Below are positions 7,867 to 58,874 of a stretch of 64,000 nucleotides of DNA, piece by piece. How positions within the stretch are numbered: position 1 is the stretch's first letter; each line of letters opens with the position of its first letter. The notes under the pieces are model-generated. The model did not search any database. It saw only the letters and a list, made by a program, of their open reading frames with translations, and was not told the origin of the DNA. The translations under genes and the position numbers were made by a program. The stretch is from Candidatus Woesearchaeota archaeon (GTDB taxonomy: Archaea > Nanobdellota > Nanobdellia > Woesearchaeales > UBA12501). The stretch is taken from contig JAWOBY010000048.1 of assembly GCA_046484055.1 (NCBI GenBank), forward strand, positions 4,596-68,595, written 5' to 3'.

Positions 7867-8007
7867 AATAAGTAAAGACGATTAAAGAAGGACAATAAAG
7901 TTAAAGAAAGACAATAAATGCATATATCAACCTTGTAAGATTGGCCGATTATAAGGATGGTCACAATATGAGGGTTATCATAAAGACAGCACCAAAAGAG
8001 GTATAAA

Positions 8008-8712
8008 ATGGTTTCAGAGCTGACCATCGGCAAGATAACAGCATTGGCGGCCGCAGACGCTGTCAATCCCTGCGCCATTGCTGTGCTGACTCTTGTTCTC
8101 ATAGCTGTCCTGACAGCGCAGCCCAAGAAAAGGAGCAGGGTGCTGCTCACAGGCCTGTCATTCACACTTTCAGTCTATATCCTTTATCTCCTGTATGGGC
8201 TTGTGTTCATACAGATATTCAAGACATTTGTTGAGGGGATCTCATCCATAAGGATTTACCTGTATAACATACTCGCCGCCCTTGCTATACTTCTCGGAGC
8301 GCTGAACATAAGGGATTTCATAAACTACAAGCCGGGCGGCGCCGGCACTGAGATGCCTTTGTTCATGAGGCCTAAGATGAAGAAGGTGGTTTCAAGGATA
8401 ACATCTCCCGGAGGAGCTTTTGTCCTGGGCGCTTTCGTCACTGTGTTCCTTCTTCCATGCACTGTTGGGCCTTACATAATCGCTTCGGGCATACTCTCAT
8501 ATCTTGGGTTCCTCAAGGTGCTTCCCTGGCTCTTCTATTACAACCTGATCTTTGTCCTGCCCATGATAGCCATAACAATAATCGTCTATATCGGCTACAC
8601 GACAGTGGAGAGGGTCAGCAGCTGGAAGGACAAGAACATAAGATACCTCCACCTCATAGCAGGAATCATACTCGTGCTGCTGGGTGTTGCCATGCTCGCA
8701 GGATGGCTCTGA
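8008..8712 (+). CDS. ccdA: CcdA/DsbD-family thiol:disulfide transmembrane electron transporter
   Basis: SD AGAGGT. AAADAVNPCAIAVLTLVL and FLLPCTVGPY are conserved Cys-containing TM motifs. About six TM helices. Confidence 0.75.
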   Translation: MVSELTIGKITALAAADAVNPCAIAVLTLVLIAVLTAQPKKRSRVLLTGLSFTLSVYILYLLYGLVFIQIFKTFVEGISSIRIYLYNILAALAILLGALNIRDFINYKPGGAGTEMPLFMRPKMKKVVSRITSPGGAFVLGAFVTVFLLPCTVGPYIIASGILSYLGFLKVLPWLFYYNLIFVLPMIAITIIVYIGYTTVERVSSWKDKNIRYLHLIAGIILVLLGVAMLAGWL

Positions 8713-8827
8713 TTCTTTTCTTGTTAGATTATTGTGTGATCAGAATATCCTACAACCAGAACACTGGGCGAGAACTTATATGCTTATTCATGCGGTTATG
8801 ATGGTTTGTGCGGTCATGATAGATCAA

Positions 8828-9505
8828 TCATGCTGTCTGGGCCCTGCCCTCTGCATGAGAATCCTGCCCCTGCACGCCCTCCTTCTTCATGAGAACCTTT
8901 TTTCTCTTGTTGGAATACCTGTGCGCTAGATGCAGCGGCTCGGGAAGCTTGTGGGGGTGGATTATGAACCTCTTGACAAGGTCTTCCGCGGTCCTTACGC
9001 TTATCCTGTGGCCGGGTGATACATAGAGGGGCTTTGCATAATCCCTTGTCTTGACCTCCGCAGCCCGTATCTCCTTGTCCACTTCCACTTTGCCTTCCAT
9101 AACTTTGCCCATCATCAGGTTTTTTGCGATGCCTATGGTTGGTACATCCAGGGCTATGCCCAGCTGGGATGCCATCCCTATCCTTCTCGGGTGCAGTATG
9201 CCGTTCGCATCAACCATGAGCACATCCGGCCTTGTCCTGAGCTTGCTGAACGCCTCTACCACAGCGGGCCCTTCCCTGTAGAACATGTAGCCTGGTATGT
9301 ATGGCATCCTGCATTCAGCCACTTCATGGGCCGAATCAACAATCTTCATGTTCCTGTCCATCACCACAACATATGATATTATCCTGTTGTCATCGGTATA
9401 TGCCTGATCGCAGCCCCCTATGTACTCGATATCCTCAAACATGTCATTTGTTATAACATTCTCCGCGAGTCTCTGCTGCTCTGACTTGAGCTTTAGCTTG
9501 TGCAT
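8828..9505 (-). CDS. nfi: endonuclease V
   Basis: YIGGCDQAY ... RMPYIPGYMFYREGPAVVEAF ... VLMVDANGILHPRRIGMASQLGIALDVPTIGIAK are canonical Nfi motifs. Confidence 0.85.
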   Translation of the reverse strand: MHKLKLKSEQQRLAENVITNDMFEDIEYIGGCDQAYTDDNRIISYVVVMDRNMKIVDSAHEVAECRMPYIPGYMFYREGPAVVEAFSKLRTRPDVLMVDANGILHPRRIGMASQLGIALDVPTIGIAKNLMMGKVMEGKVEVDKEIRAAEVKTRDYAKPLYVSPGHRISVRTAEDLVKRFIIHPHKLPEPLHLAHRYSNKRKKVLMKKEGVQGQDSHAEGRAQTA

Positions 9506-10545
9506 TCTTTGGCACCTCCTCCATTCTCCATCTCAGGGGAATATTCCACCACAATATTCCTATTCTTTGTATTCTTGGCTGCGTAAAGCGCCTTGTCCGC
9601 CCGGCGGTATATTGTATCATATATTTCTCTGGGCCTCATACCTTCAAAGTCTGAGGGATTGAATACTGTATATCCCATGCTTATGGTGATGCTTGTGCTG
9701 TCCTTGCCGGGGGTTTTTCCGTCCGGGGAAGTCATCAGTGAGTAGGTGTCCTTCTCATCAATCTTAGGGTATTCAGGCAGTCTTGTGTCCTCGACATTCT
9801 TCCTCATCCTCTCAACAACATCAAATGCACTTTCCTTTGGGACTCCGTAGAGAAGGAACATGAATTCCTCTCCCCCCATCCTTCCTCCCTGGTTCTCGTA
9901 ATCCCCTCCTCTCTCGCCTATATCCTCATCCCTCAATGAGCTGTTTAGAGATTCTGCCACTCTCTTGAGCGCTTCGTCGCCTGCGGGATAATGGCCATAA
10001 GTATTATTGTATTCCCCGAAATGGTCTATATCACCTATTGCTATAGTGAACTCTTCTCCTGTCCTGAGAGATCTCGCGATCTCCTGCTTTACCCTGTTCA
10101 TGAATGCTTCTCTCTTGTAGAGGCCTGTAAGCCCGTCAAAATTCACAAGATTGTCGACCTCATCTGCAAGCTCATCCCTATTGGTTTCAAGTCTCTTGTG
10201 TTCTTTCTGCATCTCGTTTATCATATTCTTGTAGGTATCTATCTTCTCCCTGATAAGGTTGGGGCTCTTGAGCGCTTCAGTGAAAGGGATTCTCTTGTCA
10301 AGGTCATATGACTGCGGTTTCCCCTCCTCCTTTCTCATCCCCAGCCTCTCGTAGTTCCTGTCAATCATGACCTCATACAATCCTATGGATTCTAGTAATG
10401 AGGTGATCTCTTCTCTCCGCTCAGAATAATAGTCGTAAAGGTCTGAAATCTGCTTAAGTGTCCTGAGATTCTCTTTTTCCCTGTCTGAAAGGCCGGCATT
10501 CGCGATCTCTTCCAGCTGGTTCTTCGGGTCTTCAGGCATTTCCAT
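9493..10545 (-). CDS. GGDEF-domain nucleotide cyclase (diguanylate cyclase-like) with N-terminal coiled coil
   Basis: DIDHFGEYNNTYGHYPAGDEALK ... GGRMGGEEFMFLLYG ... RADKALYAAKNTKNR. The maximal ORF reaches 10635 (GTG). The ATGs at 10545/10539 are preceded by AGGTGA, so I prefer them. The 3' end overlaps the nfi start by 13 nt. Confidence 0.8.
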   Translation of the reverse strand: MEMPEDPKNQLEEIANAGLSDREKENLRTLKQISDLYDYYSERREEITSLLESIGLYEVMIDRNYERLGMRKEEGKPQSYDLDKRIPFTEALKSPNLIREKIDTYKNMINEMQKEHKRLETNRDELADEVDNLVNFDGLTGLYKREAFMNRVKQEIARSLRTGEEFTIAIGDIDHFGEYNNTYGHYPAGDEALKRVAESLNSSLRDEDIGERGGDYENQGGRMGGEEFMFLLYGVPKESAFDVVERMRKNVEDTRLPEYPKIDEKDTYSLMTSPDGKTPGKDSTSITISMGYTVFNPSDFEGMRPREIYDTIYRRADKALYAAKNTKNRNIVVEYSPEMENGGGAKECTS

Positions 10546-10780
10546 TTTCACCTTTTTGGACTGTACTGTGGGTTTTTCATGCGGTCCTTTTCGCAGGCAT
10601 GTTGAACCCTGCACCCCATACAAACTTTTTACCACTGATTAAGAATAACTAATATATAAAGTTTTCTGTTTTTTACCACTTAATAGTTAATATTATTTGG
10701 TGCTGTTGGCAGTCACAACCCATAATTCTGATCCCCTCTTGTTGGTGATGCAGGCTGTCAGGATACAAAAGCCAGAATAA

Positions 10781-11180
10781 TAAAAATTTGACCATTATCT
10801 TGTCAAAACCTAGCGGTTTTTCCCCTTTGTGTTCAACTGAAATCATTTAAACAGTTGAACACAACGTATAAGCAAGCCCTAACCACACCTTAAAAGGTGA
10901 GGTATTAACGGATTTGTACTTTACATGGTCAAATTTTTAGTCTTGAAAATTTCTCCCCTAAGTCGAAATTTTCAATAAGCTTTATTTGGGGTAATGCCTT
11001 TATAATGCCTCCAGAGAAGGTCAGGAGCGTCTGCAGTGGGTTGTGCTGGAGGATTAGGAAGGCCCCCCGTGGAAAGGATTTGTTGGGGGTGGTTGAGAAA
11101 ACAGAACCAATCAGGGGGGCCTTTGAAAATGAATATTCTGCCATTGCAGGACATTCGGTCTTGCATGGCATTGTTTTTTT
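10781..11180 (+). ncRNA. candidate structured non-coding RNA (family unknown)
   Basis: The region has no convincing ORF.
- A 15-bp long-range helix (10781-10795 / 10925-10939) encloses hairpins at 10827-10864 (13 bp) and 10805-10820 (6 bp).
- An 11-bp hairpin sits at 10943-10975.
- A 7-bp helix pairs 11008-11014 with 11046-11052.
- A 10-bp GC helix pairs 11059-11068 with 11114-11123.
- A terminal hairpin at 11140-11169 is followed by T7.
- Two G-U pairs are valid only on the + strand. Confidence 0.35.
11140..11180 (+). terminator. hairpin plus T7 run (terminator-like)
   Basis: GCCATTGCAGGAC attcg GTCTTGCATGGC forms 12 bp with one bulged T and one G-U pair. It is followed by attgTTTTTTT. Further T runs lie downstream (11201-11208). 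Confidence 0.45.
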
Positions 11181-11250
11181 GGGTTTCTAAAGGTCCTGTT
11201 CTTTTTTTTGTGGCTTTTCTGTGCTGATTTTGCGCTTTTACGGCCTTTTC

Positions 11251-11658
11251 CTACGGTTTTGGCTGGCCGTGCACCTCGCGGCTCCACATCACCCCTATTT
11301 TTGTCAATGCCTTGTTGAAACTGTCTGATATGCGGTACTTCTTCTGGTATAGATCATAATCTATCAAACCCATGCCTTTCATCGGCGTCAGGATGCGATC
11401 GTAAAACTGCCTTTTGTTGTATGATATCCTTTCCCTCTTTTTCCCCATTCTGCCCATAGGCCCTTTCTCCTCTACTTCCACAAGAGTGCCGTCATGCAGT
11501 TTGTTGGCGAAGACAGACATCTCTGTCTTCCCCATCTCGCCGTTTCTGGCTTTCATCTCGTTTATGAGCATCTTTGCCACGAGGGCCTGTTGCTCTGTTG
11601 CAAATATGACCTCATACACATTATCAGGCAGGTTGAACCTGTCAAATAACATGACCAT
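11251..11658 (-). CDS. hypothetical protein (possible C-terminal wHTH)
   Basis: 135-aa ORF with coding-like composition. FYDRILTPMKGMGLIDYDLYQKKYRIS resembles a helix-wing. I recognised no family. Confidence 0.5.
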   Translation of the reverse strand: MVMLFDRFNLPDNVYEVIFATEQQALVAKMLINEMKARNGEMGKTEMSVFANKLHDGTLVEVEEKGPMGRMGKKRERISYNKRQFYDRILTPMKGMGLIDYDLYQKKYRISDSFNKALTKIGVMWSREVHGQPKP

Positions 11659-11994
11659 TTCAAACGTGTAAATATAAACTAGTATATAAATGTTACGCTT
11701 TTGAGTATTAGTATAGCTTTTTGTATACTGGATAATTCTCTACCGTATGGTCCTCATGCAAGGTAGTTTTGCCAATTTATTCACTACTTAAAAGAAATAA
11801 AAAAAAGAAAAATTTATAAAATCGGCTCCGCACCCACAAGACACCTCCCCTCCATATCACCCATCATGAACTGCATACAAAACCGCATCATGCCTGAATG
11901 CATACAAGGCCCCACATAAAATACGCTTAAAATGCCCCCACACCTTCTTCTGAAGGACGGACAGAAAATGAACAGAGAGTGAAACAAACAGAAA

Positions 11995-12738
11995 ATGAGA
12001 CACACAGGATTCAGCACAGGATGCCTGCACGGTTCAGGCATGAGCATGGAAGAGATTGTTGAGCTTTACTTATCCGCAGGAGCGGACGCTATAGAGCTCA
12101 GCTTCGCTACCCCTCAGGAGATGGAAGATTTCCAGCTCTCTGACAATCTTTCCGGAAAGATCAACAAGTTCGATTATGTGACAGTCCATGCCCCATGGAA
12201 AAGAAACTATCACTTCCACGACGAGGAGGCAAGGATGGTGGTTGATAAAATCGGAGAGATATCCGCGAAGGCAGACATAAGGGGGGTCGTGGTGCATCCG
12301 GATCCTTTGCCCCCTCTCAACATTCTGATGGAATCAGGCATTCCATTCCTCATAGAGAATATGGACCACATGAAGTATTTCGGGACAGAACCAAAACACT
12401 TCCGCCAGTTCAAGAGATATTACAATCTTGATTTTGTCTTTGACATCCAGCACGCGTACGAGCATGACCCGTCCATGAAACTCGCCGAAGAGCTTATGAT
12501 ATGTATAGGCCCCCGGCTGAAGCACATGCACGCCAGCGGGCAGGCGGGAGGTCTTAACCATTCGCTTATACACGCTGCAGAGAACAGGGACGCGATCACA
12601 GGCATACTTCAGAAAGCGGCAGGGTTGGGGATTGAAAAACCTGTAATAATTGAGGGGGTCATGTCCGGCAGTAGGGAAAATTTCTATAATTCAGCAAGGA
12701 AAGAGATGGAGCTTGTGAAGGAGTATTACAGAAAATAA
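11995..12738 (+). CDS. xylose isomerase-like TIM-barrel protein (sugar phosphate isomerase/epimerase or AP-endonuclease 2 fold)
   Basis: GFSTGCLHG ... GADAIELSF ... VTVHAPW ... VVVHPD ... IENM ... MHASG follows the pattern of this TIM-barrel family. Confidence 0.65.
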   Translation: MRHTGFSTGCLHGSGMSMEEIVELYLSAGADAIELSFATPQEMEDFQLSDNLSGKINKFDYVTVHAPWKRNYHFHDEEARMVVDKIGEISAKADIRGVVVHPDPLPPLNILMESGIPFLIENMDHMKYFGTEPKHFRQFKRYYNLDFVFDIQHAYEHDPSMKLAEELMICIGPRLKHMHASGQAGGLNHSLIHAAENRDAITGILQKAAGLGIEKPVIIEGVMSGSRENFYNSARKEMELVKEYYRK

Positions 12739-12767
12739 AACCTCTGCATGAATTATGCATTAAAATA

Positions 12768-14651
12768 TCATGCGAGCCTCCTCTGGGTGGGCTCGAAGAA
12801 CTCCTCTATCATCTCCCTGTAGTGCCTTGTCACGTTGATGTCCCACCCCTTCGGGAAGCACCTCTTGTAATTGGGCCAGATGTATCTCTGGTCCAGAAAG
12901 ACTACGACGCCGCGGTCATTCTCCGACCTTATGCACCTTCCCGCATTCTGCAGTGTCCTGTTGAACGCTGGGAAGATATAGCCGTAATCCCATCCCTTGG
13001 CGAACTTCCTGTCATAATAATTTATCAGCTCTTTTGTCTCAAGGTCCGGCTGCTGGAGGGGAAGGCCCGCCACCACCACGCACTTCAGAAGATCGCCGGG
13101 CAGGTCTATCCCCTCCCCAAATGAGCCGGTGGTGACTCCCAGCATGACTGCCCCTGTCTTCTGATAACTCTTGAATTTCTCCAGTATCTCTGACTTATCG
13201 CTCTTGCTGAGTTTCTGCTGCTCGAGCATGACTGTCTTCCTGCACAGAGGGTCAAAGAACCTGTACACCTGATCCCTCAGGGAATAGCTGGGGAAGAATA
13301 TCGCGCTGTTGCCCGGCACTTCATTGATGATCTCTGAGCATATCTCGGCTATCCTTTTGAACTGCGAATCATTCCTCATGGAATATTTTGTCGTGGTCTC
13401 GGGCACTATTATGCTGAGCTTGTTGTCATCCATGAACGGGCTCTCGTATGTCCTCTCAATTGTGCCTGCGGGGAATCCCAGCAGGTCGCGGTACATACGT
13501 GTGGGGTTGAGCGTCCCGCTCATTATTATTGTGGAGTAAGACTGCTCTATTATTTCTTTAGTGACTGTGGAAGGATCAAGGCACCGGTAGGACAGGGTCA
13601 GGACAGGCTGCCTTCCATAATTATGCACAGAGAATATCCTCGCGAATGACTCGTCCGCCCCTTTCCAGCTGTCCAGGAACTTGGCCACACCCGCTACCTG
13701 GGATTTCTGCTGCTGTTCCCTTATGTCATCGCCCGCGAAGTCGAGGTCTGCTGTGAGCTCCTCATAATCCTTTATCCTGTTGATCCTCTTCATGAAATCC
13801 TCCTTTGTTATCAGCCTTTCATTCCCGCTTGTGTCATTGGCGTATTCATTGAGTATGTCCTGTATGAGTGAGAGATGGTTCACCAGCTCATCATAACCGT
13901 ATTTCTTGGCCTCATTTATCGCCCTTCTCAGCGCCATGTTGGATATCCTCTCTGTGGCAAGATCCCTTGTCCTGACCGGCAGGTTATGGCCCTCATCGAT
14001 TATTATTATCGATTTTCCCAGCTCCTTGTTGGTCTTGGCCAGGAAGCTGTCCCTTATCATTGAATTGAATATGTAGAAGTAATCCGCAACAACAACCCTT
14101 GAATCCGCAGCCAGGGCTGTCGCCATCTCATAAGGGCAGAGCTTGTTATGCTTTGCGATCTCAACCAATCTTTCAGTATGGCAGCAGCCATTGCTCTTTA
14201 TCTCCTCCAGGATCTTTGCCGCTTCAGGTGTGAGCTTGCTGTTCTTCTTTGTACGTGTGAAGAACTCGCACTTGTTGTCCTCCCTCACAGACTTGCAGTA
14301 TTCCGCGAAATCCTTTGAGTAGAGGGCTTCCACTCCCGGCATGGAGCACATCCATCTCTTGCCGATTATGTCCGCCACATTGAAATTTATGCTGTGCTTC
14401 TTCCTTATCTCTTCAAGTGTCTGGACAGCGATCTGGTGCTGTGTATGCCTTGAGGTGAGGAAAAAGACAGTGAGATTCTCGTCTATCGCGTGCCTCAATG
14501 CCGGGCCGAGGGTTGCGGCAGTCTTGCCAAGTCCTGTTGGCGCGTGCGCTATGAGGTGCTTCCTGTTCCTTATGGCCTCATCCGCATCCTTCACCAGGTC
14601 CTCCTGTATCTCCCTCACCCTCTCATGCGGAAAAAGAAATTTTTTGTCCAT
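12768..14651 (-). CDS. xpd: XPD/Rad3-type FeS DNA helicase (DinG family)
   Basis: Walker A AHAPTGLGKT. DEGHNL box. Four-Cys cluster region (CSMPG...C..C...CPYE). C-terminal helicase motifs (GSFGEGIDLPG, QNAGRCIR). Confidence 0.85.
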   Translation of the reverse strand: MDKKFLFPHERVREIQEDLVKDADEAIRNRKHLIAHAPTGLGKTAATLGPALRHAIDENLTVFFLTSRHTQHQIAVQTLEEIRKKHSINFNVADIIGKRWMCSMPGVEALYSKDFAEYCKSVREDNKCEFFTRTKKNSKLTPEAAKILEEIKSNGCCHTERLVEIAKHNKLCPYEMATALAADSRVVVADYFYIFNSMIRDSFLAKTNKELGKSIIIIDEGHNLPVRTRDLATERISNMALRRAINEAKKYGYDELVNHLSLIQDILNEYANDTSGNERLITKEDFMKRINRIKDYEELTADLDFAGDDIREQQQKSQVAGVAKFLDSWKGADESFARIFSVHNYGRQPVLTLSYRCLDPSTVTKEIIEQSYSTIIMSGTLNPTRMYRDLLGFPAGTIERTYESPFMDDNKLSIIVPETTTKYSMRNDSQFKRIAEICSEIINEVPGNSAIFFPSYSLRDQVYRFFDPLCRKTVMLEQQKLSKSDKSEILEKFKSYQKTGAVMLGVTTGSFGEGIDLPGDLLKCVVVAGLPLQQPDLETKELINYYDRKFAKGWDYGYIFPAFNRTLQNAGRCIRSENDRGVVVFLDQRYIWPNYKRCFPKGWDINVTRHYREMIEEFFEPTQRRLA

Positions 14652-14969
14652 TATTCGTCAAAGCCCCCAATATAGATATACTGTTTATTATTATCTACTG
14701 TGTGTTATTAGTCTGTTATTATTGTTCGGGATTTTTTTGGTTTTTTCCGGCTTTTATATATTTTGTTATGCAGGACATGGTCTGCTGTGGCCATGAGGAA
14801 AACTCCTGTTTTATGCCGCTTTTATCCTGTTACTTATGCGAACATATCATGCATAACCGTGGAGGCTGAGCATGCATGATCTCATATTCTCTGCATCAAG
14901 CAAAAACTTTATAAATAAGTACTTTGAACTATACTTTATAATCTTTATAATGTGTTCAGGGGGTTGGAG

Positions 14970-15239
14970 ATGAAGACTAGTCCGATATTCGGTGTATTTT
15001 TCAGGGAAAAGCCGGCCATGATGCTGGTCAATCTTAGGAACGCGAAAGGGGAAGTATATGCTTCTAATCTCGCCAAGCAGATAGACTGCACTTATTCTCA
15101 TGTTGTCAAGATTCTTCAGCAGATGGAGAAAGCAGGCCTTGTGAATTTTGACAAGCAGGGCAGGCTCAAGATTCTCACGCTAACCAAGAAAGGAGGGGAG
15201 GTTGCGGACAGCATCGATAAGATAAGGAATCTTATTTGA
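14970..15239 (+). CDS. small winged-helix transcriptional regulator
   Basis: The ATG at 14970 follows GGAG. MLVNLRNAKGEVYASNLAKQIDCTYSHVVKILQQMEKAGLVNFDKQGR is a MarR/ArsR-like wHTH. Three CTTTATAA boxes lie upstream (14900-14950). Confidence 0.6.
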   Translation: MKTSPIFGVFFREKPAMMLVNLRNAKGEVYASNLAKQIDCTYSHVVKILQQMEKAGLVNFDKQGRLKILTLTKKGGEVADSIDKIRNLI

Positions 15240-16491: not shown

Positions 16492-18726
16492 ATGGCTGGA
16501 GCTGATACAGACAAGATAGAAGAGGTGTTAGGTCCGCCTCCATCACCAGAGGAAGAGGAGAAGAAGGGATTATTCTCAAGCCTTTTCGGAAAGAAAAAAG
16601 ACAAGGAGAAATCCGAGAAGTCCGGCGACGAGGCCGAAGGGATTGATAAAGGGCTGAGTGACAAGGGCCTTCCTGAAAAAGGTGAAAAAGGACTGCCCGA
16701 AAAGCCGGCCGGGAAGAAGAGCAGTAAAGAGGATGAAGAAAAGGCAAAAGCAGCTTCTAAAGGGGCTTCTGTGAAAGATGATAGCGGAGCACGCGGCGGA
16801 CTGCGCGGCGCATCCCGAAGGAAAGCTATGGATATCAAGGATGATGAAGGAGCAGATGAGGATATAATCAAAAAGACAGGTAAAGGGCGGGACAAGGACA
16901 GGTCCGCCCTCATGCCGAAAGCCCCTGAAAGCAAGGAAGAGGACAAAGGGAGTGATGATAAGGACAAAGGCAGTGATAATAAAAATGTAAAAGAGCTGAA
17001 GAAAAAGGAAGAGTTCCTCGCCAGGAAGAAAGAGGACCTGGACAGGTGGGAGAAAGAGCTGAAAGCGAAGGGGGCTGCCGCCGCCAAACAGGAGAAAGTG
17101 GAGAAGAGGATAAAAGATCTGCAGGAGAAATATGACCGGCTAAGCCACGACGTTTCCAGAAAGGAAGAGGAGCTCAATGACCTTGAGCAGCAGATAAAAT
17201 CAAAACAGAAAGATGCATCCGGAAAAGGGAATGCCCTGAAAGAGAAACAAAACATACTCCTTGACCTCTCTGATAAGATAACCCGGCGTAAGAAGGAGCT
17301 GGATGAGAAAGAGAAAGCCCTTGCTGAGAGGGAGAAATCAGCAGAAGAGGCCCACAAGGAAGCGGGCAGGAAAGAGGCGGACGTCAAGAAACTGGTCAAT
17401 GAAAGCAGGAAAGAGCTCTCATCACTGGAAAAAAGGAAGGATTCGCTCAACAAGGACATAGAACTCCTCAAGAAAGACAAGGAGAACCTTCAGTCCGAGC
17501 TTGAAAAGGCCCAAAACAAGCTGAAAGAGACGATCAACACGAACAAGAAAGAGAGAAAATACCTCAACAAGAAGCACGACGAGATACTCGGGAGGGAGGA
17601 GAAGGCGGCCAAAGAAGAGGAGAAGCTGAAGAAGCTCCAGGACCGCATAAAGATGAGGCAGGATGAGCTGGCTGAGAAGGAAAACGAGCTCAGTGAAAAA
17701 GAGAAGAACCTTCAGGACAAGGAGAAACAGCTTGATTCCAGAGAGAAATCACTCCGGAAAAAGGCAGAAAAGATAGAGAATGATATCACCGGCCTCATGA
17801 AACAGAAAGAGAAGATATCCGAAGATATAGAATCAAAGAAAGCATACATAAAGGATCTTGACAAGAAGTCAAAAATCCTTGAGGATAAGGAGAAAGAGGT
17901 CACCAAAAGCGTGAAGGACATTGAGAAAAGCAACCGGCTCCTGAAAGAGAGGGAGGATGAGGTCTTGAATCTCATTGATGAGATGGAGAAGACCAAGAAG
18001 AACCTTGAAAGCAAGGAGGATGATGTCAAGAAGAAAGTCGGGGAGCTAGAGAACAGGATGAAGGAGCTGAATGAGACTGAAGCTGAGCTTGAGAACAGGG
18101 AGAACAGCATAGGCAGGATCGAGAAGCAGCTCCAGAAGCAGAAGGCAGAGCTCAAGGAAAAACTGGACAGGATAAACAAGGCCAAGGAACTCCAGACCAG
18201 CATAGACTCACTGAAGAAATCCAAGCAGGAGATGGAAAACCAGATGCAGAAGAAGATCAGGGACCTGGAGAACAAGATAGAGAAAAAATCACAGAAACTG
18301 ATGAACATGGACGAGATAAAGAAGAAGCAGGAAGAGATGAAGGAAAAAGAGAAAGAACTCAACAAGAGATCCGAACTGATCAGCAGGAAAGAGAAGAGCG
18401 TCAAGGATATGCTGGAAAGGTCCGAACAGGATCTTAAGAAGGAGAAGTTCGGCGCTTATGTGGCGAGCGAGTTCATGGAGAGGCCCGCAAGGGAAGAGGT
18501 GGCAGAGGACATCGTTGAAAGCAAGGAAGAGAAGACGATGAGGATACTGTCCATGATACAGGAGGCCAGAGAGGCCCTGGAGATGGAGGACGCGCACAGG
18601 GCCAGGGACATATACCACAAGATAAAGCCGATGTATGACCAGCTCCCCAGCGTGGAGCACAAGAAAAAGGTATATTATGACATCATGGAGCTGAAGACTG
18701 ATATTGAGCTCAACTCTATTGAGTGA
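16492..18726 (+). CDS. 744-aa K/E-rich coiled-coil protein with a short non-repetitive C-terminal domain
   Basis: The long ORF is dominated by heptad-like E/K/L repeats (KELDEKEKALAEREK...). The last ~100 aa are non-repetitive (RILSMIQEAREALEMEDAHRARDIYHKIKPMYDQLP). Confidence 0.7.
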   Translation: MAGADTDKIEEVLGPPPSPEEEEKKGLFSSLFGKKKDKEKSEKSGDEAEGIDKGLSDKGLPEKGEKGLPEKPAGKKSSKEDEEKAKAASKGASVKDDSGARGGLRGASRRKAMDIKDDEGADEDIIKKTGKGRDKDRSALMPKAPESKEEDKGSDDKDKGSDNKNVKELKKKEEFLARKKEDLDRWEKELKAKGAAAAKQEKVEKRIKDLQEKYDRLSHDVSRKEEELNDLEQQIKSKQKDASGKGNALKEKQNILLDLSDKITRRKKELDEKEKALAEREKSAEEAHKEAGRKEADVKKLVNESRKELSSLEKRKDSLNKDIELLKKDKENLQSELEKAQNKLKETINTNKKERKYLNKKHDEILGREEKAAKEEEKLKKLQDRIKMRQDELAEKENELSEKEKNLQDKEKQLDSREKSLRKKAEKIENDITGLMKQKEKISEDIESKKAYIKDLDKKSKILEDKEKEVTKSVKDIEKSNRLLKEREDEVLNLIDEMEKTKKNLESKEDDVKKKVGELENRMKELNETEAELENRENSIGRIEKQLQKQKAELKEKLDRINKAKELQTSIDSLKKSKQEMENQMQKKIRDLENKIEKKSQKLMNMDEIKKKQEEMKEKEKELNKRSELISRKEKSVKDMLERSEQDLKKEKFGAYVASEFMERPAREEVAEDIVESKEEKTMRILSMIQEAREALEMEDAHRARDIYHKIKPMYDQLPSVEHKKKVYYDIMELKTDIELNSIE

Positions 18727-28480: not shown

Positions 28481-29956
28481 ATGGCAGGGAAAGAAAAACA
28501 AGGGGAACAGGAAAAGCCAGGCGATGAAGAGCGGGGGAAGCAATGGCCTGTGTGTTTTTCTGAGCAGATGATAATCGGCAGCAGGGAAAGCAATGTGAGC
28601 ATAATAACACTATGGACGCAGAAAGAGCCAATAGCAGAAAAACTGGACAGGGAGAGCTATGCGACGATAGGCCAGCTATACTCCAAGGCGGGAATCAATG
28701 CAGTGCTGCGCAATGTTCTTGCGAACCCATCCATAAGATATATCATTGTCTGCGGCGCTGACAAGTCCGGAAGCGGTGAAGCGCTGTTGAGTCTTGCAAT
28801 GAACGGAATTGATGATAACCACAATATCTCAGGTGTTGAGAACGCGCACATAGAGAAAGAGATTCCCGCAGAAGCGGTGGAGGAATTCCGACGTAATGTT
28901 GAGGTCATTGACATGAGGGGGGTAACTGATCCTGCAGGGATCAGTCGCAGGATAAACAGCCTTGAGAGCAGAGGGCCATTTGCAGAGCCCAAGTTCTTTC
29001 CTGCGGCGAAGCCTGACCTTCCTGAAAGATACCCCACAGACCCCTCAGTCTTCAAGGTGCGCGCCGGCACGATAGGCATCGCATGGCTGACCGTCCTGAG
29101 CAAGATAATGAAGTTCGGCCATAACAAGAGGAGCCATCACAGCTCAGGCCAGAAGGAGCTCCTGAATATTGTGGCAGTGATAACAGGAGAGGATCCCGAA
29201 AACATAGCATGGTATGAATTCTTCAACTTCACAAGGAAAGAGCTGGAGGAGTATTACCCTCAGGTTCTGACTTCCAGGAGCATAAAAGGCATAAATTACA
29301 CGTACGGCCAGCGCCTGATGGATTACAACGGCATTGACCAGATAAAGAGCGTGATAGAAAAGCTGAAGAAAGAGCCTTTCACCAGGAGAGCGATAGCAGT
29401 CACATGGGAGGCTGACAAGGATGTGTATAACAAGAACGCGCCCTGCCTCGACCTTGTCAATTTCATAGTGCAGGACAACAAGCTTTTCATGAACGCATAT
29501 TTCAGGAGCCATGACATGTACAGGGGGTGGCCGCAGAACTGCTTCGCCCTGAGAAAGCTCCAGAAGCACGTTTCGGATGAGACAGGCATCCCTATGGGTG
29601 ACATGACAATATTCAGCGCTTCAGCGCACATATATGAAGAGAACATCAATGAGGTCCAGGAGATCATTGACATGTATTATGAAGGGCCTGAGCATGAATG
29701 GGACCCAAGAGGGAATATGGTGATAGGCATTGACAGGGAGAACATGGAGATTGTCATATCCCATCAAAGCCATGACGGCCGGAAACTCGAAGAATTAAGG
29801 GGCAGCAGTGTGAAGGAGCTGGCGGGAAAGCTTGAGAAGCACCATACGATATCCCAGACAGCGCATGCGCTTGATATAGGATCGGAACTCCAAAAAGCGT
29901 ATATTGCGATGAGAAACGGCCTTGAATACGTGCAGGATAACGATATCAAGATTTGA
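28481..29956 (+). CDS. thyA: thymidylate synthase (ThyA family) fused to an N-terminal MtrA-like domain
   Basis: C-terminal half: RRAIAVTWE, NAPCLDLVNFIVQDNKL (catalytic Cys), FRSHDMYRGWPQN, SAHIYEEN. N-terminal half: AVLRNVLANPSIRYIIVCGADKSGSGEAL resembles the methyltransferase subunit A-like fold. Confidence 0.75.
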   Translation: MAGKEKQGEQEKPGDEERGKQWPVCFSEQMIIGSRESNVSIITLWTQKEPIAEKLDRESYATIGQLYSKAGINAVLRNVLANPSIRYIIVCGADKSGSGEALLSLAMNGIDDNHNISGVENAHIEKEIPAEAVEEFRRNVEVIDMRGVTDPAGISRRINSLESRGPFAEPKFFPAAKPDLPERYPTDPSVFKVRAGTIGIAWLTVLSKIMKFGHNKRSHHSSGQKELLNIVAVITGEDPENIAWYEFFNFTRKELEEYYPQVLTSRSIKGINYTYGQRLMDYNGIDQIKSVIEKLKKEPFTRRAIAVTWEADKDVYNKNAPCLDLVNFIVQDNKLFMNAYFRSHDMYRGWPQNCFALRKLQKHVSDETGIPMGDMTIFSASAHIYEENINEVQEIIDMYYEGPEHEWDPRGNMVIGIDRENMEIVISHQSHDGRKLEELRGSSVKELAGKLEKHHTISQTAHALDIGSELQKAYIAMRNGLEYVQDNDIKI

Positions 29957-54631: not shown

Positions 54632-56107
54632 ATGGATGATGATCTGAAGAATAGGGTGGGCATGGGTGTAGAGGAACTGATCCTTATCCTGCTTGTCATC
54701 GCTTCTGTCGCTGAATTCCTCGGTGTGCTGCCTGCTGATTTTGATTATATGAAGAAGATCCTCTCATGGGCAGCCCTCGGATACCTCCTGTACAAGGCGA
54801 ATCTCACAGAGGTATTCTTCGGATACAAGGACAAGATGATAGATCTGGGGCTCATAATAGCTTATTTCATGCTGGTCATGAAAAATCTCATATCCTACTC
54901 AAGGTTCGCTATGGGGGAGCTCTCGGAAGCAGGGAGTTCATTCCTCATACCCTTATACTCGTTCATAATCGAGAATGCATCCTCCTTTGAGATGGTTACT
55001 TTCTGCATAGGCGGAGGCATCATCCTCCTGCTCGCGGCGCTCAACATCTTCCTTAATGTAGAGATAAAGGAACCAAGCGTGATGGCAATACTGTTCAGGG
55101 AAGGGCCATCACCTTCAGCAGGCGGCAGGATACTCAGGGCGCTGGCATCTTTTGCGATATACTCCTCTTTCTTCGTGGTGGTGTTCAACCTGCTCATGGA
55201 ATGGCTTGGCTGGGCTGTGGATTCCACCATAATAGTGGTGGCGATATTTGTCTATCTTTTCCTCTTCATGAAACACTACCGGAAGTTCGACACCCAGTCC
55301 TTCCTCTTCAGGGTGGGGGATGTGTGTGAGGACCTTTATGCAAGATTCATCGACCTCTTCCATTCGAGGAGAACACTCATGATGGGTGTCAGCGGGCTTC
55401 TTGTGCTCCACCTCCTGACTGACATAGGCAATTTCATAATACCTTACATGATAGGGAAGGAGATAAATTATTTCTCCACACTGGGGGCCGGCCATAATGT
55501 GATACCCTACCTGCTTTCCATAGATATGGGCATAGCAGGCAGCGCAGCATACAAGCTGGCAGTGCTTCTTGTCTATGCGCTCAACATTGCAGCAATAATA
55601 CTCCTGCTCGCAGGGCCCGCTTTCATATGGTACGAGATGTACATGGAGAAGAGAGTGAGGATTCCGGCGCCTGTATACGGCCTCTTTTTCGCCTCTTTCT
55701 TCACATTCCTTGTTTCGCCCCTTTTCAGGCTGCAGAGGATAGGGATTGAGGGGGTTTACGGGGTTGATATCATGACCAGGACCATAAGCGTTTCAAACTC
55801 AATGATGGTGATGGCAAGCGCCCTTGTCATTGGGGTGACGATCTGGATACTGGGCTATAACCACATAATCCGGACCATGATGAGGTATATCACCCTTTTT
55901 GCAGTGGAGATATTCTTCGCTTTCTACATCTACCTTTTCTTCACGGACCTTGCGGGGTTCTACATGGATAAGATCTCCTCTGTAGAGGGATATTTCATAT
56001 TGTTCTATCTCTTCGTGTTCCTTGCCATAACATCCCTCTTCTATGTAGGGGGCATAGCCCATTTCATATACAGCACCATAAGGAGCGTGACCAAAAACTT
56101 TATATAG
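54632..56107 (+). CDS. hypothetical polytopic membrane protein
   Basis: 491-aa ORF with about 11-12 hydrophobic segments. No recognised family. Confidence 0.55.
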   Translation: MDDDLKNRVGMGVEELILILLVIASVAEFLGVLPADFDYMKKILSWAALGYLLYKANLTEVFFGYKDKMIDLGLIIAYFMLVMKNLISYSRFAMGELSEAGSSFLIPLYSFIIENASSFEMVTFCIGGGIILLLAALNIFLNVEIKEPSVMAILFREGPSPSAGGRILRALASFAIYSSFFVVVFNLLMEWLGWAVDSTIIVVAIFVYLFLFMKHYRKFDTQSFLFRVGDVCEDLYARFIDLFHSRRTLMMGVSGLLVLHLLTDIGNFIIPYMIGKEINYFSTLGAGHNVIPYLLSIDMGIAGSAAYKLAVLLVYALNIAAIILLLAGPAFIWYEMYMEKRVRIPAPVYGLFFASFFTFLVSPLFRLQRIGIEGVYGVDIMTRTISVSNSMMVMASALVIGVTIWILGYNHIIRTMMRYITLFAVEIFFAFYIYLFFTDLAGFYMDKISSVEGYFILFYLFVFLAITSLFYVGGIAHFIYSTIRSVTKNFI

Positions 56108-57965: not shown

Positions 57966-58874
57966 ATGAGGAGAAAACTCGTGAAACAGGGCAGGAATGC
58001 TTTGACTGTTACTCTGCCTACAGCATGGCTTGAGAAGAATAATCTCATGTCTGGCAGCGAAGTTTTTCTGGAGGAGAGAGATCATGGGCTTTTGGTATCA
58101 GGCAGAGAATCCGCTGGCGGTAACAAAAAAGATGTTAGCATAAAAGGAATGGACCCCATGATAAAAAGGATACTTGGAGCAATATACAAAGCAGGCTATG
58201 ATGAAGTGGATGTGACCTTCGATACAGCTAAAGAGCTTGAAACGGCGCAGGAAGTCATCAGAGAGGAGTTCATAGGTTTCGAGGTAACACAGCATGGCAA
58301 GCATACCCTTAACGTGAAGAAGGTCTCTTCTATTGATATAGAAGAATTCAATACCATGATAAGAAGGATGTTCCTCATAATCAAGTCAATGGCTGATGAC
58401 AGCTTAGATGCAATCAATAATGATGATCCAGATTTTATGAGGATGATTATACTCCGCGACAAGGATGTAAATAAAATAGCCGATTTCTGCAGGAGAGCGC
58501 TAAATACCTCGGGCCACCTTATAGAAGGCAGAACACCTCCATTGTACTTTATATCAGAGCAGCTTGAGAAGATAGGGGATAATTACCGTGACTTATGCAA
58601 GTTTATGATAAAAAAGAGGATAAAACCATCTAAAGAGGTCATGGGCTTTTTTTCAGAAGTGAACAGTTTCTTTGAGATGTTTTACGAGCTCTATTTCAAT
58701 TTCAGCCTTAAGAAGATGGCTGAGTTCGGAAAGAGAAGATATGAGCTAGTCGATGAATCAGAGAAGATGATTGGCTTCGCATCAAAAAATGAGTTGATGT
58801 TCCTTTTCTATATGAAAGAGGTAATCGAGAACACCTTCGACATGAATGGTCCTCTCATGGCTGCTAAACTATAA
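57966..58874 (+). CDS. AbrB/SpoVT-domain + PhoU-like regulator (archaeal phosphate-uptake-regulator type)
   Basis: N-terminal KLVKQGRNALTVTLPTAWLEKNNLMSGSEVFLEE is the AbrB swapped-hairpin. The C-terminus has two PhoU-like helical repeats. Confidence 0.75.
   Translation: MRRKLVKQGRNALTVTLPTAWLEKNNLMSGSEVFLEERDHGLLVSGRESAGGNKKDVSIKGMDPMIKRILGAIYKAGYDEVDVTFDTAKELETAQEVIREEFIGFEVTQHGKHTLNVKKVSSIDIEEFNTMIRRMFLIIKSMADDSLDAINNDDPDFMRMIILRDKDVNKIADFCRRALNTSGHLIEGRTPPLYFISEQLEKIGDNYRDLCKFMIKKRIKPSKEVMGFFSEVNSFFEMFYELYFNFSLKKMAEFGKRRYELVDESEKMIGFASKNELMFLFYMKEVIENTFDMNGPLMAAKL

What the first reader, a model, noticed from the sequence alone, without database searches (positions are those of the whole stretch)
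8828..10635. Catalytically intact GGDEF cyclase in an archaeal context, overlapping endonuclease V by 13 nt
The protein keeps the GGDEF-domain hallmarks: DIDHFGEYNNTYGH (metal and substrate site), GGEEF, and the C-terminal RADKALYAAK. It follows a roughly 150-aa coiled coil with no recognisable sensor domain.

An RGGD element lies upstream of GGEEF, but 8 residues away rather than the usual 5. I-site feedback inhibition may therefore be altered.

From established knowledge, cyclic-di-GMP signalling is regarded as essentially bacterial and GGDEF genes are rare in archaea. No EAL, HD-GYP or PilZ gene is visible in this window.

The cyclase stop (9493) overlaps the nfi start (9505), which implies co-transcription and possibly translational coupling of a nucleotide cyclase with a deaminated-base endonuclease. 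I do not know of this pairing having been described.
Basis: partly seen in the sequence, partly recalled or inferred. Interest (0 to 1): 0.6.

Follow-up and report, generated by a model that had tools for sequence, protein, structure and literature searches.

The report
Archaeal GGDEF cyclase beside endonuclease V
A tiny DPANN archaeon (Woesearchaeota) carries a genuine gene for the enzyme type bacteria use to make the signal c-di-GMP, wedged into a conserved DNA-repair gene block just ahead of endonuclease V; archaeal cyclases of this type were published in 2026, so only the conserved neighbourhood, fast evolution and one missing catalytic lysine are new.

Summary
A 350-aa protein (window 9493-10545, minus strand) combines an N-terminal helical hairpin with a GGDEF domain (Pfam E 7e-28). 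Its stop codon overlaps the start of an intact endonuclease V gene by 13 nt.

The contig is archaeal and the lineage is Woesearchaeota. The gene sits in an archaea-only clade, so it is neither contamination nor a recent bacterial import.

- GGDEF is common in this order: 103 of 201 genomes, against EAL 6, PilZ 3 and HD-GYP-type 55. DPANN GGDEF proteins with cyclase activity were published in September 2026.
- "Catalytically intact" is only mostly true. The transition-state lysine (PleD K332) is glycine here. The conserved RxxD is RDED, not RGGD, and is separated from GGEEF by an insertion.
- The genome does encode a GAF-HD-GYP-like candidate phosphodiesterase, on another contig.

The GGDEF-nfi pairing is not unique: at least 14 related loci share it. 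It arose by insertion of a GGDEF (with or without an HD gene) module into an older XPD / winged-helix / nfi block. The inserted genes evolve much faster than their neighbours. A functional link to DNA repair is possible but unproven.

The parts
9493..10545 (-). GGDEF gene. It encodes 350 aa: an N-terminal helical hairpin (residues about 21-135) followed by a GGDEF domain (about 136-335). The open frame extends upstream to a GTG at 10635.
   Evidence: - ORF; 350-aa public gene call.
- Pfam GGDEF E 7e-28.
- AlphaFold2 mean pLDDT 92.1, pTM 0.80.
- The best Foldseek matches are active diguanylate cyclases.
9862..9876 (-). Codons for the A-site GGEEF (residues 224-228).
   Evidence: Sequence read; alignment columns.
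10015..10017 (-). Codon for G177, the position of the PleD K332 transition-state lysine, here glycine.
   Evidence: - Column counts: K in 96 of 97 bacterial domains, G in this protein and its two closest orthologues.
- Role of K332 from PMC12943098 and bioRxiv 10.1101/2025.08.22.671821.
9883..9933 (-). Region encoding RDED-IGE-R plus the insertion GGDYENQGG (residues 205-221), just before R-M-GGEEF. This is the displaced I-site region.
   Evidence: R205 and D208 are invariant in the clade, while RGGD is not conserved.
8828..9505 (-). nfi, endonuclease V, 225 aa. Its ATG overlaps the GGDEF stop by 13 nt.
   Evidence: - Pfam Endonuclease_5 E 1.8e-54.
- The start is conserved in orthologues.
- Homologues are named Candidatus Woesearchaeota.
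9513..9522 (-). Shine-Dalgarno-like GGAGGAGGTG, 7 nt before the nfi ATG. It lies inside the codons for the GGDEF C-terminal tail (ENGGG).
   Evidence: Read directly from the sequence. Inference only.
10653..10660 (-). TTTATATA, a candidate archaeal TATA box about 108 nt upstream of the GGDEF ATG.
   Evidence: Read directly from the sequence. Consensus-level inference only.
11251..11658 (-). 135-aa small protein with no Pfam match. It is the conserved upstream neighbour of the slot.
   Evidence: 72-81% identical in relatives. It lies next to XPD and nfi in genomes with and without the GGDEF gene.
12768..14651 (-). XPD/Rad3-type helicase, the outer member of the conserved block.
   Evidence: Pfam DEAD_2, HBB and Helicase_C_2; synteny.
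8008..8712 (+). SfLAP-like membrane protein, the conserved downstream neighbour, convergent with nfi.
   Evidence: Pfam PF11139; 71-74% identical in L164, L165 and L166.

Best explanation
The gene encodes a native Woesearchaeal diguanylate-cyclase-type enzyme with a "stalk plus GGDEF" architecture.

**Proposed mechanism**
- An N-terminal helical hairpin probably dimerises into a helical bundle (inferred).
- Dimerisation would bring two GGDEF domains, each holding GTP-Mg, face to face to make c-di-GMP (inferred). This is how the stalk cyclases WspR, SiaD and DgcB work.

**Gene neighbourhood**
- The gene belongs to a small, fast-evolving, archaea-only lineage of GGDEF genes.
- Often together with an HD-type (HD-GYP-like) phosphohydrolase gene, this lineage was inserted once into an older DNA-repair block: XPD helicase, small winged-helix protein, endonuclease V (inferred from synteny and the tree test).
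- The insertion lies directly upstream of nfi with overlapping stop and start. nfi is therefore now most likely transcribed from the cyclase promoter and translated from its own Shine-Dalgarno sequence, which sits inside the cyclase's last codons (inferred).

**Turnover and receptors**
- The only turnover partner found in this genome is a single GAF-HD-GYP-like protein encoded elsewhere.
- Receptors are unknown: no PilZ protein and no c-di-GMP riboswitch was found.

**Status of the claims**
- Shown: domain identity, fold, archaeal residence, synteny and relative rates of divergence.
- Inferred: dimerisation, the product, co-transcription and the enzyme's actual activity. Activity may be reduced because the transition-state lysine is a glycine.
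For: **Identity and fold**
- Pfam and TIGR GGDEF matches.
- PDB sequence hits to WspR and other cyclases.
- AlphaFold2 mean pLDDT 92.
- Foldseek top hits: GCN4-WspR 3i5c, WspR 3bre, 3ign (TM 0.91), SiaD 7e6g, DgcB 6ttr.

**Catalytic columns**
- D327, D329, N335, D344, R366, GGEEF, K442 and R446 are all canonical.

**Archaeal residence**
- aIF2-gamma, SRP54, GAN (DHH-CID) and XPD lie on the same contig.
- nfi homologues are named Candidatus Woesearchaeota.
- There is one GGDEF gene in a MAG with 0.97% estimated contamination.
- In the tree, the window protein sits in an archaea-only clade with SH-aLRT 97, 96, 87 and 91.

**Prevalence across 201 genomes of the order**
- GGDEF 103, HD_5 55, EAL 6, PilZ 3.
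- GGDEF and HD_5 co-occur: odds ratio 2.5, p 0.007.

**Slot synteny**
- window, G009, L017 and L164: wH-GGDEF-nfi.
- L165, L143 and G196: GGDEF-nfi.
- L140 and L141: GGDEF-HD-nfi.
- G011 and G016: XPD-wH-HD-GGDEF-nfi.
- G014: HD-GGDEF-nfi.
- G003: GGDEF-degenerate GGDEF-nfi.

**Ancestral block without GGDEF**
- G121: XPD-wH-nfi. G159: wH-nfi. L168 and L169: XPD-wH-67 aa ORF-nfi. G147: XPD-wH-HD-nfi.

**Single origin**
- Not rejected. The AU test gives p 0.956 and the constrained tree is better by 63 lnL units.

**Own phosphodiesterase candidate**
- GAF plus HD_5, E 1e-20, on contig C47.

**Precedent**
- DPANN MAG GGDEF proteins show cyclase activity in Salmonella and E. coli reporters (PMC13725321).

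**Weak expression hint**
- Two metatranscriptomes each hold a contig 100% identical to positions 9699-9872.
Against: - G177 replaces PleD K332, which contacts the beta-phosphate and is described as the transition-state stabiliser. This residue is K in 96 of 97 bacterial comparators.
- D336 is N in this protein.
- A 9-11 residue insertion precedes R-x-GGEEF, and a second insertion of about 25 residues lies in the domain.
- No product has been measured.
- c-di-GMP has not been detected in any archaeon, according to PMC13725321.
- No PilZ protein, and no credible riboswitch or other known receptor, was found.
- Co-transcription with nfi is inferred from geometry only. The RNA contigs do not cross the junction.
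- GGDEF and nfi presence are not associated across the order (odds ratio 1.1, p 0.77).
Confidence: 0.6

Rival explanations
1. The protein is a catalytically weak or inactive GGDEF that works as a nucleotide-binding (GTP or c-di-GMP) sensor or scaffold rather than as a cyclase. Loss of the transition-state lysine and remodelling of the I-site and A-site hairpin region would have shifted its role.
For: - K332->G and D336->N in this protein.
- Non-lysine residues at the K332 position in 6 of 16 slot GGDEFs and 13 of 45 other Woesearchaeal GGDEFs, against 1 of 97 bacterial ones.
- An insertion lies next to the GGEEF hairpin.
- Divergence is fast: 31-55% identity where neighbouring genes keep 66-81%.
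Against: - Every other catalytic and substrate-binding column is canonical and conserved across all 16 slot proteins despite heavy divergence elsewhere. That pattern points to selection on the active site.
- Sister orthologues (L140, L142, L143) keep the lysine.
- An HD-type hydrolase gene often accompanies the GGDEF gene, which makes sense if a product is made.
Confidence: 0.2
2. The GGDEF (with or without HD) module is functionally tied to DNA repair. Its nucleotide signal would report or control damage processing by the flanking XPD helicase and endonuclease V. This would be analogous to the c-di-AMP synthase DisA, which scans DNA and is encoded beside radA in bacteria (from general knowledge).
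For: - The module sits inside an XPD-wH-nfi block in at least 14 loci across at least 2 GTDB families.
- Stop/start overlaps with nfi are retained (13, 4, 4, 20 and 14 nt) even where the GGDEF protein has diverged to 31% identity.
- In G002 the gene after the GGDEF is a different nuclease-family gene, Exo_endo_phos.
Against: - XPD-wH-nfi exists without any GGDEF, so the adjacency can be explained by one insertion plus vertical descent.
- There is no order-wide association of GGDEF with nfi (p 0.77).
- nfi has no extra domain that could bind a nucleotide.
- DPANN genomes are compact, so overlaps are common (general knowledge).
Confidence: 0.12
3. The enzyme makes a different product, such as cGAMP, c-di-AMP or a linear or other oligonucleotide, as Hypr GGDEF enzymes do.
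For: The active-site periphery is unusual (G177, N181, insertions), and no canonical c-di-GMP receptors are found in the order.
Against: The specificity position D344 is Asp (D190) and N335 is Asn. The Ser signature of cGAMP-making Hypr GGDEFs (described) is absent.
Confidence: 0.06
4. The gene is a bacterial contaminant, a mis-binned contig or a very recent bacterial transfer.
For: The best named hits outside the clade are bacterial GGDEF proteins at about 30-38% identity. One relative's contig (L165) is deposited under a bacterial (KSB1) MAG name.
Against: - The 71-kb contig carries archaeal information-processing genes.
- The gene is flanked on both sides by genes 66-81% identical to those of other Woesearchaeota.
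- Orthologues occur in the same slot in many genomes.
- Only 5 cluster representatives out of 1.84 billion reach E 1e-30, and none is known to be bacterial.
- GC content is unremarkable.
Confidence: 0.02

Closest known systems
Archaeal GGDEF diguanylate cyclases from DPANN and other MAGs and isolates (Sidorov et al., Mol Microbiol 2026, PMC13725321)
   Same: - It is a GGDEF protein encoded on a contig flanked by unambiguously archaeal genes.
- It is short, with no known sensor domain.
- The GG(D/E)EF motif and the Asp at the xxGD position are retained.
- That paper also lists one MAG protein with a 12-residue insertion upstream of RxxGGDEF.
   Different: - That work did not survey prevalence and judged GGDEF to be only occasional in archaea, not multi-copy.
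- Here, 51% of 201 Woesearchaeales genomes have it, with up to 6 copies.
- That paper's main text has no occurrence of 'endonuclease'; its XPD context and divergence rates were not checked here.
- This protein was not among those I could identify in the paper, and it has not been tested.
Stalk or coiled-coil diguanylate cyclases: WspR (3BRE), GCN4-WspR fusion (3I5C), SiaD (7E6G), Caulobacter DgcB (6TTR)
   Same: - A long helix runs directly into the DxLT wide turn of a canonical GGDEF domain.
- These are the best sequence and structure matches.
- Dimerisation through the stalk is the expected activation route.
   Different: - The N-terminus is a two-helix hairpin with no receiver domain and no known partner of the SiaC type.
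- K332 is Gly.
- The RxxD motif is separated from GGEEF by an insertion, so WspR- or PleD-type product inhibition is uncertain.
HD-GYP c-di-GMP phosphodiesterases (Pfam HD_5, PF13487)
   Same: - The genome's GAF-HD_5 protein scores above the Pfam cut-off.
- The HD genes next to slot GGDEFs keep the H...HD...H...HH...D ligand pattern.
   Different: - The GYP motif is SYP after an insertion in the genome's own protein.
- It is GYE or GYS, or absent, in the slot HD proteins.
- Two slot HD proteins are too diverged for any Pfam hit.
- The window itself has no HD gene or remnant.
DisA-RadA: a c-di-AMP synthase encoded with and acting on DNA-repair functions in bacteria (from general knowledge, not tested here)
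   Same: A cyclic-dinucleotide synthase gene is embedded among DNA-repair genes.
   Different: - It is an unrelated enzyme fold (DAC rather than GGDEF).
- This protein has no DNA-binding domain.
- The resemblance is only one of gene context.

Membership tests
GGDEF domain / diguanylate cyclase (PF00990, TIGR00254) | Profile match above the curated cut-off | tested here: met
   PF00990 scores 97.8 bits against a cut-off of 23.8. TIGR00254 scores 104.8 against 37.4.
GGDEF domain / diguanylate cyclase (PF00990, TIGR00254) | GG(D/E)EF A-site hairpin preceded by an Arg (RxGGEEF) | tested here: met
   R222-M-G224-G-E-E-F228 is present. These columns are conserved in all 16 slot proteins.
GGDEF domain / diguanylate cyclase (PF00990, TIGR00254) | Metal ligands (PleD D327, E370) and guanine-binding residues (N335, D344) | tested here: met
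   D172, E226, N180 and D190 align to these columns.
GGDEF domain / diguanylate cyclase (PF00990, TIGR00254) | Phosphate-binding Lys/Arg in the C-terminal helix (K442, R446) | tested here: met
   K324 and R329 align to these columns.
GGDEF domain / diguanylate cyclase (PF00990, TIGR00254) | Transition-state / beta-phosphate lysine (PleD K332, the FK of DxDxFK) | tested here: not met
   The residue here is G177. It is K in 96 of 97 bacterial comparators. Role of K332.
GGDEF domain / diguanylate cyclase (PF00990, TIGR00254) | Wide turn DxLT at the start of the domain | tested here: met
   D137-G-L-T140 is present, and D137, L139 and T140 are invariant in A2.
GGDEF domain / diguanylate cyclase (PF00990, TIGR00254) | GGDEF (palm-like) fold | tested here: met
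   AlphaFold2 mean pLDDT 92. Foldseek E 1e-13 with target TM up to 0.91 to solved cyclases.
GGDEF domain / diguanylate cyclase (PF00990, TIGR00254) | Synthesis of c-di-GMP from GTP | not testable with these tools
   This needs an enzyme assay.
I-site (product-inhibited) diguanylate cyclases | RxxD five residues upstream of GG(D/E)EF | tested here: inconclusive
   - The conserved R205-x-x-D208-x-x-x-R212 keeps the canonical RxxDxxxR spacing.
- A 9-residue insertion (GGDYENQGG) separates it from R222-M-GGEEF.
- RGGD (212-215) is not conserved in orthologues.
Endonuclease V (PF04493) | Full-length profile match plus the PYIPG wedge and acidic catalytic motifs | tested here: met
   - PF04493 at E 1.8e-54, covering positions 2-198 of 198.
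- GGCDQAY, PYIPGYMFYRE, VDANGILHPRR and SPGH are visible in the translation.
- Assigning these motifs to catalytic residues rests on general knowledge.
HD-GYP phosphodiesterase (PF13487), own-genome partner on contig C47 | HD_5 profile above the cut-off and an HHExxDGxGYP motif | tested here: inconclusive
   HD_5 scores 74.6 bits against a cut-off of 27.2, and a GAF domain is present. The motif reads HHQRYDG-AKDAWPP-SYP.

The most novel reading that the evidence does not exclude
In one lineage of Woesearchaeota, a fast-evolving GGDEF / HD-type nucleotide-signalling pair has been built into the XPD / endonuclease V repair operon. It would couple a cyclic-dinucleotide signal to DNA-damage processing, or to genome defence. 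That would be the first physiological role for GGDEF signalling in Archaea, and one unlike the bacterial motility-biofilm paradigm.
Probability: 0.12. Interest if true: 0.8.

Novelty: new member of a known kind. Interest (0 to 1): 0.4.

Why it matters
Whether any archaeon uses c-di-GMP is still open. The 2026 paper showed activity of archaeal enzymes only in bacterial hosts, and it asked three questions: how widespread the genes are, which phosphodiesterases co-occur with them, and what they control.

This locus and the surveys done here add concrete answers for one order:
- GGDEF is present in about half of Woesearchaeales genomes.
- HD-GYP-type proteins, not EAL, are the plausible partner.
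- PilZ proteins and c-di-GMP riboswitches are essentially absent, so receptors must be new.
- One GGDEF lineage has a fixed address inside a DNA-repair gene block, which gives a testable physiological hypothesis.
- The natural Lys-to-Gly change offers a simple structure-function test.

Tried and rejected
- **Genome-contig scan with the clade alignment.** It returned only bacterial GGDEFs at 29-42% identity, because close relatives are withheld. It gave no help with taxonomy. I inferred the lineage from the names of nfi homologues instead.
- **Exact look-up of the window's own protein.** Not on record.
- **Search for an HD gene remnant in window 8000-15000 (tblastn).** None found.
- **PADLOC on GGDEF, nfi, the 135-aa protein, SfLAP and the HD proteins.** No defence-system match, apart from weak generic HD hits to Cas3 and Cas10. 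The defence-module reading therefore has no support.
- **c-di-GMP riboswitches.** c-di-GMP-II was found in 0 of 201 genomes and c-di-GMP-I in 1 of 201 (G151). The giant C39-peptidase protein downstream of that single hit has homologues only in Omnitrophica bacteria. I therefore treat the 9.8-kb contig as probably mis-binned. The window itself has no Rfam match.
- **Order-wide association of GGDEF with nfi.** None: odds ratio 1.1, p 0.77.
- **RNA evidence for co-transcription.** Only one contig of about 170 nt per metatranscriptome, lying inside the GGDEF gene. Nothing crosses the junction.
- **Folding of that 174-nt piece on either strand.** No unusual structure (z 0.3 and 1.0).
- **RGGD as the I-site.** Rejected in favour of RDED, because only R205 and D208 are conserved.
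Full report
**1. The observation**

Two co-directional minus-strand ORFs lie at 9493..10635 and 8828..9505.
- The first matches Pfam GGDEF at E 7.2e-28 and TIGR00254 at 3.9e-30.
- The second matches Endonuclease_5 at E 1.8e-54 over the whole profile.
- The GGDEF stop (TAA, 9495-9493) and the nfi ATG (9505-9503) overlap by 13 nt.
- The public gene call for the first protein is 350 aa, starting at ATG 10545. That ATG is preceded by GGTGA. A TTTATATA box lies at 10660-10653.
- nfi has its own GGAGGAGGTG 7 nt before its ATG, inside the codons for the cyclase's C-terminal ENGGG tail.

Residues 1-135 match no family.

An AlphaFold2 model built on a 40-sequence alignment has mean pLDDT 92.1 and pTM 0.80. 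It shows two long helices (21-68 and 95-135) joined by a loop. The second helix runs into the DGLT wide turn of a standard GGDEF domain.

The best Foldseek matches are solved, active diguanylate cyclases with stalks:
- the GCN4-WspR fusion 3i5c
- WspR 3bre
- 3ign (target TM 0.91)
- SiaD 7e6g
- DgcB 6ttr

**2. Whose gene is it?**

The same contig encodes aIF2-gamma, SRP54, a DHH-CID (GAN-type) nuclease and XPD.

The nearest nfi homologues that carry names are from Candidatus Woesearchaeota or Nanoarchaeota. Earlier notes on this genome agree.

The MAG is 1.44 Mb, 87.7% complete and 0.97% contaminated, and it has exactly one GGDEF gene. GC content is unremarkable.

Of 1.84 billion cluster representatives, only five reach E 1e-30. 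The places where those could be looked up have the same neighbours as the window.

In a domain tree with 45 other Woesearchaeal and 45 bacterial GGDEFs, the window protein groups as follows:
- with L017 and G009 (SH-aLRT 97)
- then with L140 and L142 (96)
- then with L143 (87)
- then with G028 (91)

No bacterial sequence falls inside this group. Contamination and recent transfer are therefore excluded for practical purposes.

**3. Is GGDEF rare here?**

No. I surveyed 201 genomes drawn evenly across the order. They span at least 136 family codes and include single-contig genomes.

| Family | Genomes with a match (of 201) |
|---|---|
| GGDEF PF00990 (above cut-off) | 103, up to 6 copies |
| HD_5 (HD-GYP type) | 55 |
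| EAL | 6 |
| PilZ | 3 |
| c-di-GMP-II riboswitch | 0 |
| c-di-GMP-I riboswitch | 1 |

- The GGDEF figure is 75 of 152 among genomes at least 90% complete.
- The single c-di-GMP-I hit lies on a 9.8-kb contig whose giant C39-peptidase protein has homologues only in Omnitrophica bacteria. It is probably mis-binned.
- GGDEF and HD_5 co-occur more often than expected: 37 of 55 against 66 of 146, odds ratio 2.5, p 0.007.
- The window's own genome has a 424-aa GAF plus HD_5 protein on contig C47 (HD_5 E 1e-20, motif HHQRYDG...SYP), next to a Cdc6-type winged-helix gene.

**4. What is already known**

Sidorov et al. (Mol Microbiol, September 2026, PMC13725321) identified GGDEF proteins in archaeal isolates and in MAG contigs of confirmed archaeal origin, mainly DPANN. 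They showed cyclase activity for several of them in Salmonella and E. coli reporters. They noted that short GGDEF-only proteins are frequent, and they list one protein with a 12-residue insertion upstream of RxxGGDEF.

They state that prevalence, co-occurring phosphodiesterases, receptors and physiological role are open questions. They judged occurrence to be occasional and not multi-copy.

Several earlier notes of this scan also report native GGDEF genes in DPANN archaea.

The core claim of a GGDEF cyclase in an archaeon is thus known. This gene is a new member.

**5. Catalytic integrity**

I aligned 16 slot proteins, 45 other Woesearchaeal domains and 97 bacterial domains to one profile.

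The window protein is canonical at PleD positions D327, D329, F331, N335, D344, R366, G368, G369, E370, E371, F372, K442 and R446.

It departs at two positions:
- K332 is G177.
- D336 is N181.

K332 contacts the beta-phosphate and is described as the transition-state stabiliser.

| Set | K at the K332 position |
|---|---|
| Bacterial comparators | 96 of 97 |
| Other Woesearchaeal domains | 32 of 45 (G in 6) |
| Slot proteins | 10 of 16 |

The glycine is shared only by the three closest orthologues. L140, L142 and L143 keep the lysine.

The I-site also needs re-reading:
The equivalent positions read RHGND and RANS in G009 and L017.
- R205-x-x-D208-x-x-x-R212 is conserved and has the canonical RxxDxxxR spacing.
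- A 9-11 residue insertion (GGDYENQGG here) then precedes R-x-GGEEF.
- HMMER and MAFFT disagree on which RxxD aligns to that of WspR.
- Without model coordinates I cannot decide whether product inhibition survives.

The specificity residue is Asp, not the Ser of cGAMP-making Hypr GGDEFs, so c-di-GMP is the expected product.

**6. The neighbourhood**

The GGDEF-nfi pairing is not unique. Gene orders found:

| Locus | Gene order |
|---|---|
| window | XPD, (247-aa gene on the plus strand), wH135, GGDEF, nfi, SfLAP |
| G009 / L166 / L167 and L164 | wH135, GGDEF, nfi, SfLAP |
| L017 | wH135, GGDEF, nfi |
| L165 | GGDEF, nfi, SfLAP |
| L143 | GGDEF, nfi |
| L140 / L141 | GGDEF, HD, nfi |
| L142 | GGDEF, HD |
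| G011 and G016 | XPD, wH135, HD, GGDEF, nfi |
| G014 | HD, GGDEF, nfi |
| G015 | XPD, wH135 ... GGDEF (contig end) |
| G003 | GGDEF, degenerate GGDEF, nfi |
| G002 | wH135, GGDEF, Exo_endo_phos nuclease-family gene |
| G196 (another GTDB family) | divergent GGDEF, nfi |

Stop/start overlaps with nfi are 13, 4, 4, 20 and 14 nt in five of these loci.

The block also exists without any GGDEF:
- G121: XPD, wH135, nfi
- G159: wH135, nfi
- L168 / L169: XPD, wH, 67-aa ORF, nfi
- G147: XPD, wH135, small HD protein, nfi

The simplest history is therefore an insertion of a GGDEF (with or without HD) module between wH135 and nfi. An AU test does not reject a single clade for all 14 slot GGDEFs. The constrained tree is in fact 63 lnL units better than the quick free search (p 0.956).

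Across the order, GGDEF presence and nfi presence are independent (p 0.77).

**7. Rates of divergence**

Percent identity to the window's proteins:

| Comparison | wH135 | nfi | SfLAP | GGDEF |
|---|---|---|---|---|
| window vs L164 | 74 | 73 | 74 | 31, over the domain only |
| window vs L165 | not on contig | 71 | 74 | 31, over the domain only |
| window vs L166 | 72 | 66 | 71 | 49 |
| window vs L017 | 81 | not compared (nfi cut by contig end) | not on contig | 55 |

- L164 and L165 have nfi proteins 76% identical to each other. Their GGDEF proteins are 31% identical, yet homologous over 325 residues.
- The HD genes in the slot are only 22-29% identical to each other.
- The signalling pair therefore evolves far faster than its housekeeping neighbours while keeping the active-site columns.
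- I cannot distinguish relaxed selection from diversifying selection with the tools at hand.

**8. Mechanism proposed**

- A stalk-dimerised diguanylate cyclase is made from its own promoter.
- nfi rides on the same transcript and is translated from the internal Shine-Dalgarno sequence.
- The signal is removed by HD-GYP-like enzymes: in trans in this genome, in cis in relatives.
- Receptors are unknown.

I put about 0.6 on this overall. Within it:
- about 0.95 that the gene is native
- about 0.55-0.6 that the wild-type protein makes c-di-GMP
- about 0.15 that the link to repair genes is functional

**9. Expression**

Two salt-lake metatranscriptomes from different studies each contain one 164-180 nt contig identical to positions 9699-9872, inside the GGDEF gene, and nothing else from the locus. 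This is a weak hint of transcription, and DNA carry-over is possible. It says nothing about the junction. The fragment has no special fold.

**10. Verdict**

- The gene is a new member of a kind described in 2026.
- Three features are noteworthy: a fixed address in a DNA-repair block, rapid divergence, and a natural Lys-to-Gly change.
- Interest is moderate.

Noticed in passing
window 11995-12738 (+): A 247-aa gene sits between XPD and the 135-aa gene on the opposite strand. It has no Pfam, NCBIfam or PDB match. It does match the PADLOC candidate defence family PDC-M70B at E 1.1e-27. It is absent from this position in the relatives examined.
   Followed up: partly
G151:C38:8950-9045 (locus L181 5951-6046, minus strand): A strong c-di-GMP-I riboswitch match (60 bits against a gathering score of 35) lies 58 nt upstream of a protein of more than 1964 aa with C39-peptidase domains. 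The contig is binned as Woesearchaeota. The protein's only homologues are from Omnitrophica bacteria, so the contig is probably mis-binned. If it is not, this would be an archaeal c-di-GMP riboswitch.
   Followed up: partly
window 9699-9872: Two metatranscriptome runs from different studies (salt-lake samples) each hold one contig of about 170 nt, 100% identical to exactly this internal piece of the GGDEF gene and to nothing else in 8700-10700. There is no unusual predicted structure on either strand. Unexplained.
   Followed up: partly
G000 contig C47 (locus L139 3870-5144, minus strand): A 424-aa GAF plus HD_5 (HD-GYP-like, motif HHQRYDG...SYP) protein is the genome's only candidate c-di-GMP phosphodiesterase. 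It lies next to a Cdc6 C-terminal winged-helix gene.
   Followed up: partly
G002:C9 (locus L173 2406-3386, minus strand): In this same-family genome, the gene after the slot GGDEF is an Exo_endo_phos (PF03372) family protein instead of endonuclease V.
   Followed up: no
loci L005-L009, L012, L099, L100, L102, L103, L106, L114, L117: Thirteen GGDEF proteins of roughly 500-590 aa, from 12 different Woesearchaeal family codes, form one well-supported clade (SH-aLRT 98). This looks like a second, widely and vertically inherited Woesearchaeal GGDEF family.
   Followed up: no
window 28481-29956 (+): A 491-aa ORF combines MtrA-like (PF04208), thymidylate synthase (PF00303) and pterin-binding DUF4346 domains in one protein.
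   Followed up: no
window 16492-18726 (+), 54632-56107 (+), 58869-61064 (-): Three long ORFs (744, 491 and 731 aa) have no Pfam match at E 1e-5.
   Followed up: no
L165 (NCBI GCA_042576465.1, JBHPEW010000441.1): A 3.1-kb contig carries GGDEF-nfi-SfLAP, with nfi and SfLAP 71-74% identical to this Woesearchaeal window. It is deposited in a MAG labelled candidate division KSB1 bacterium, so it is probably mis-binned.
   Followed up: no
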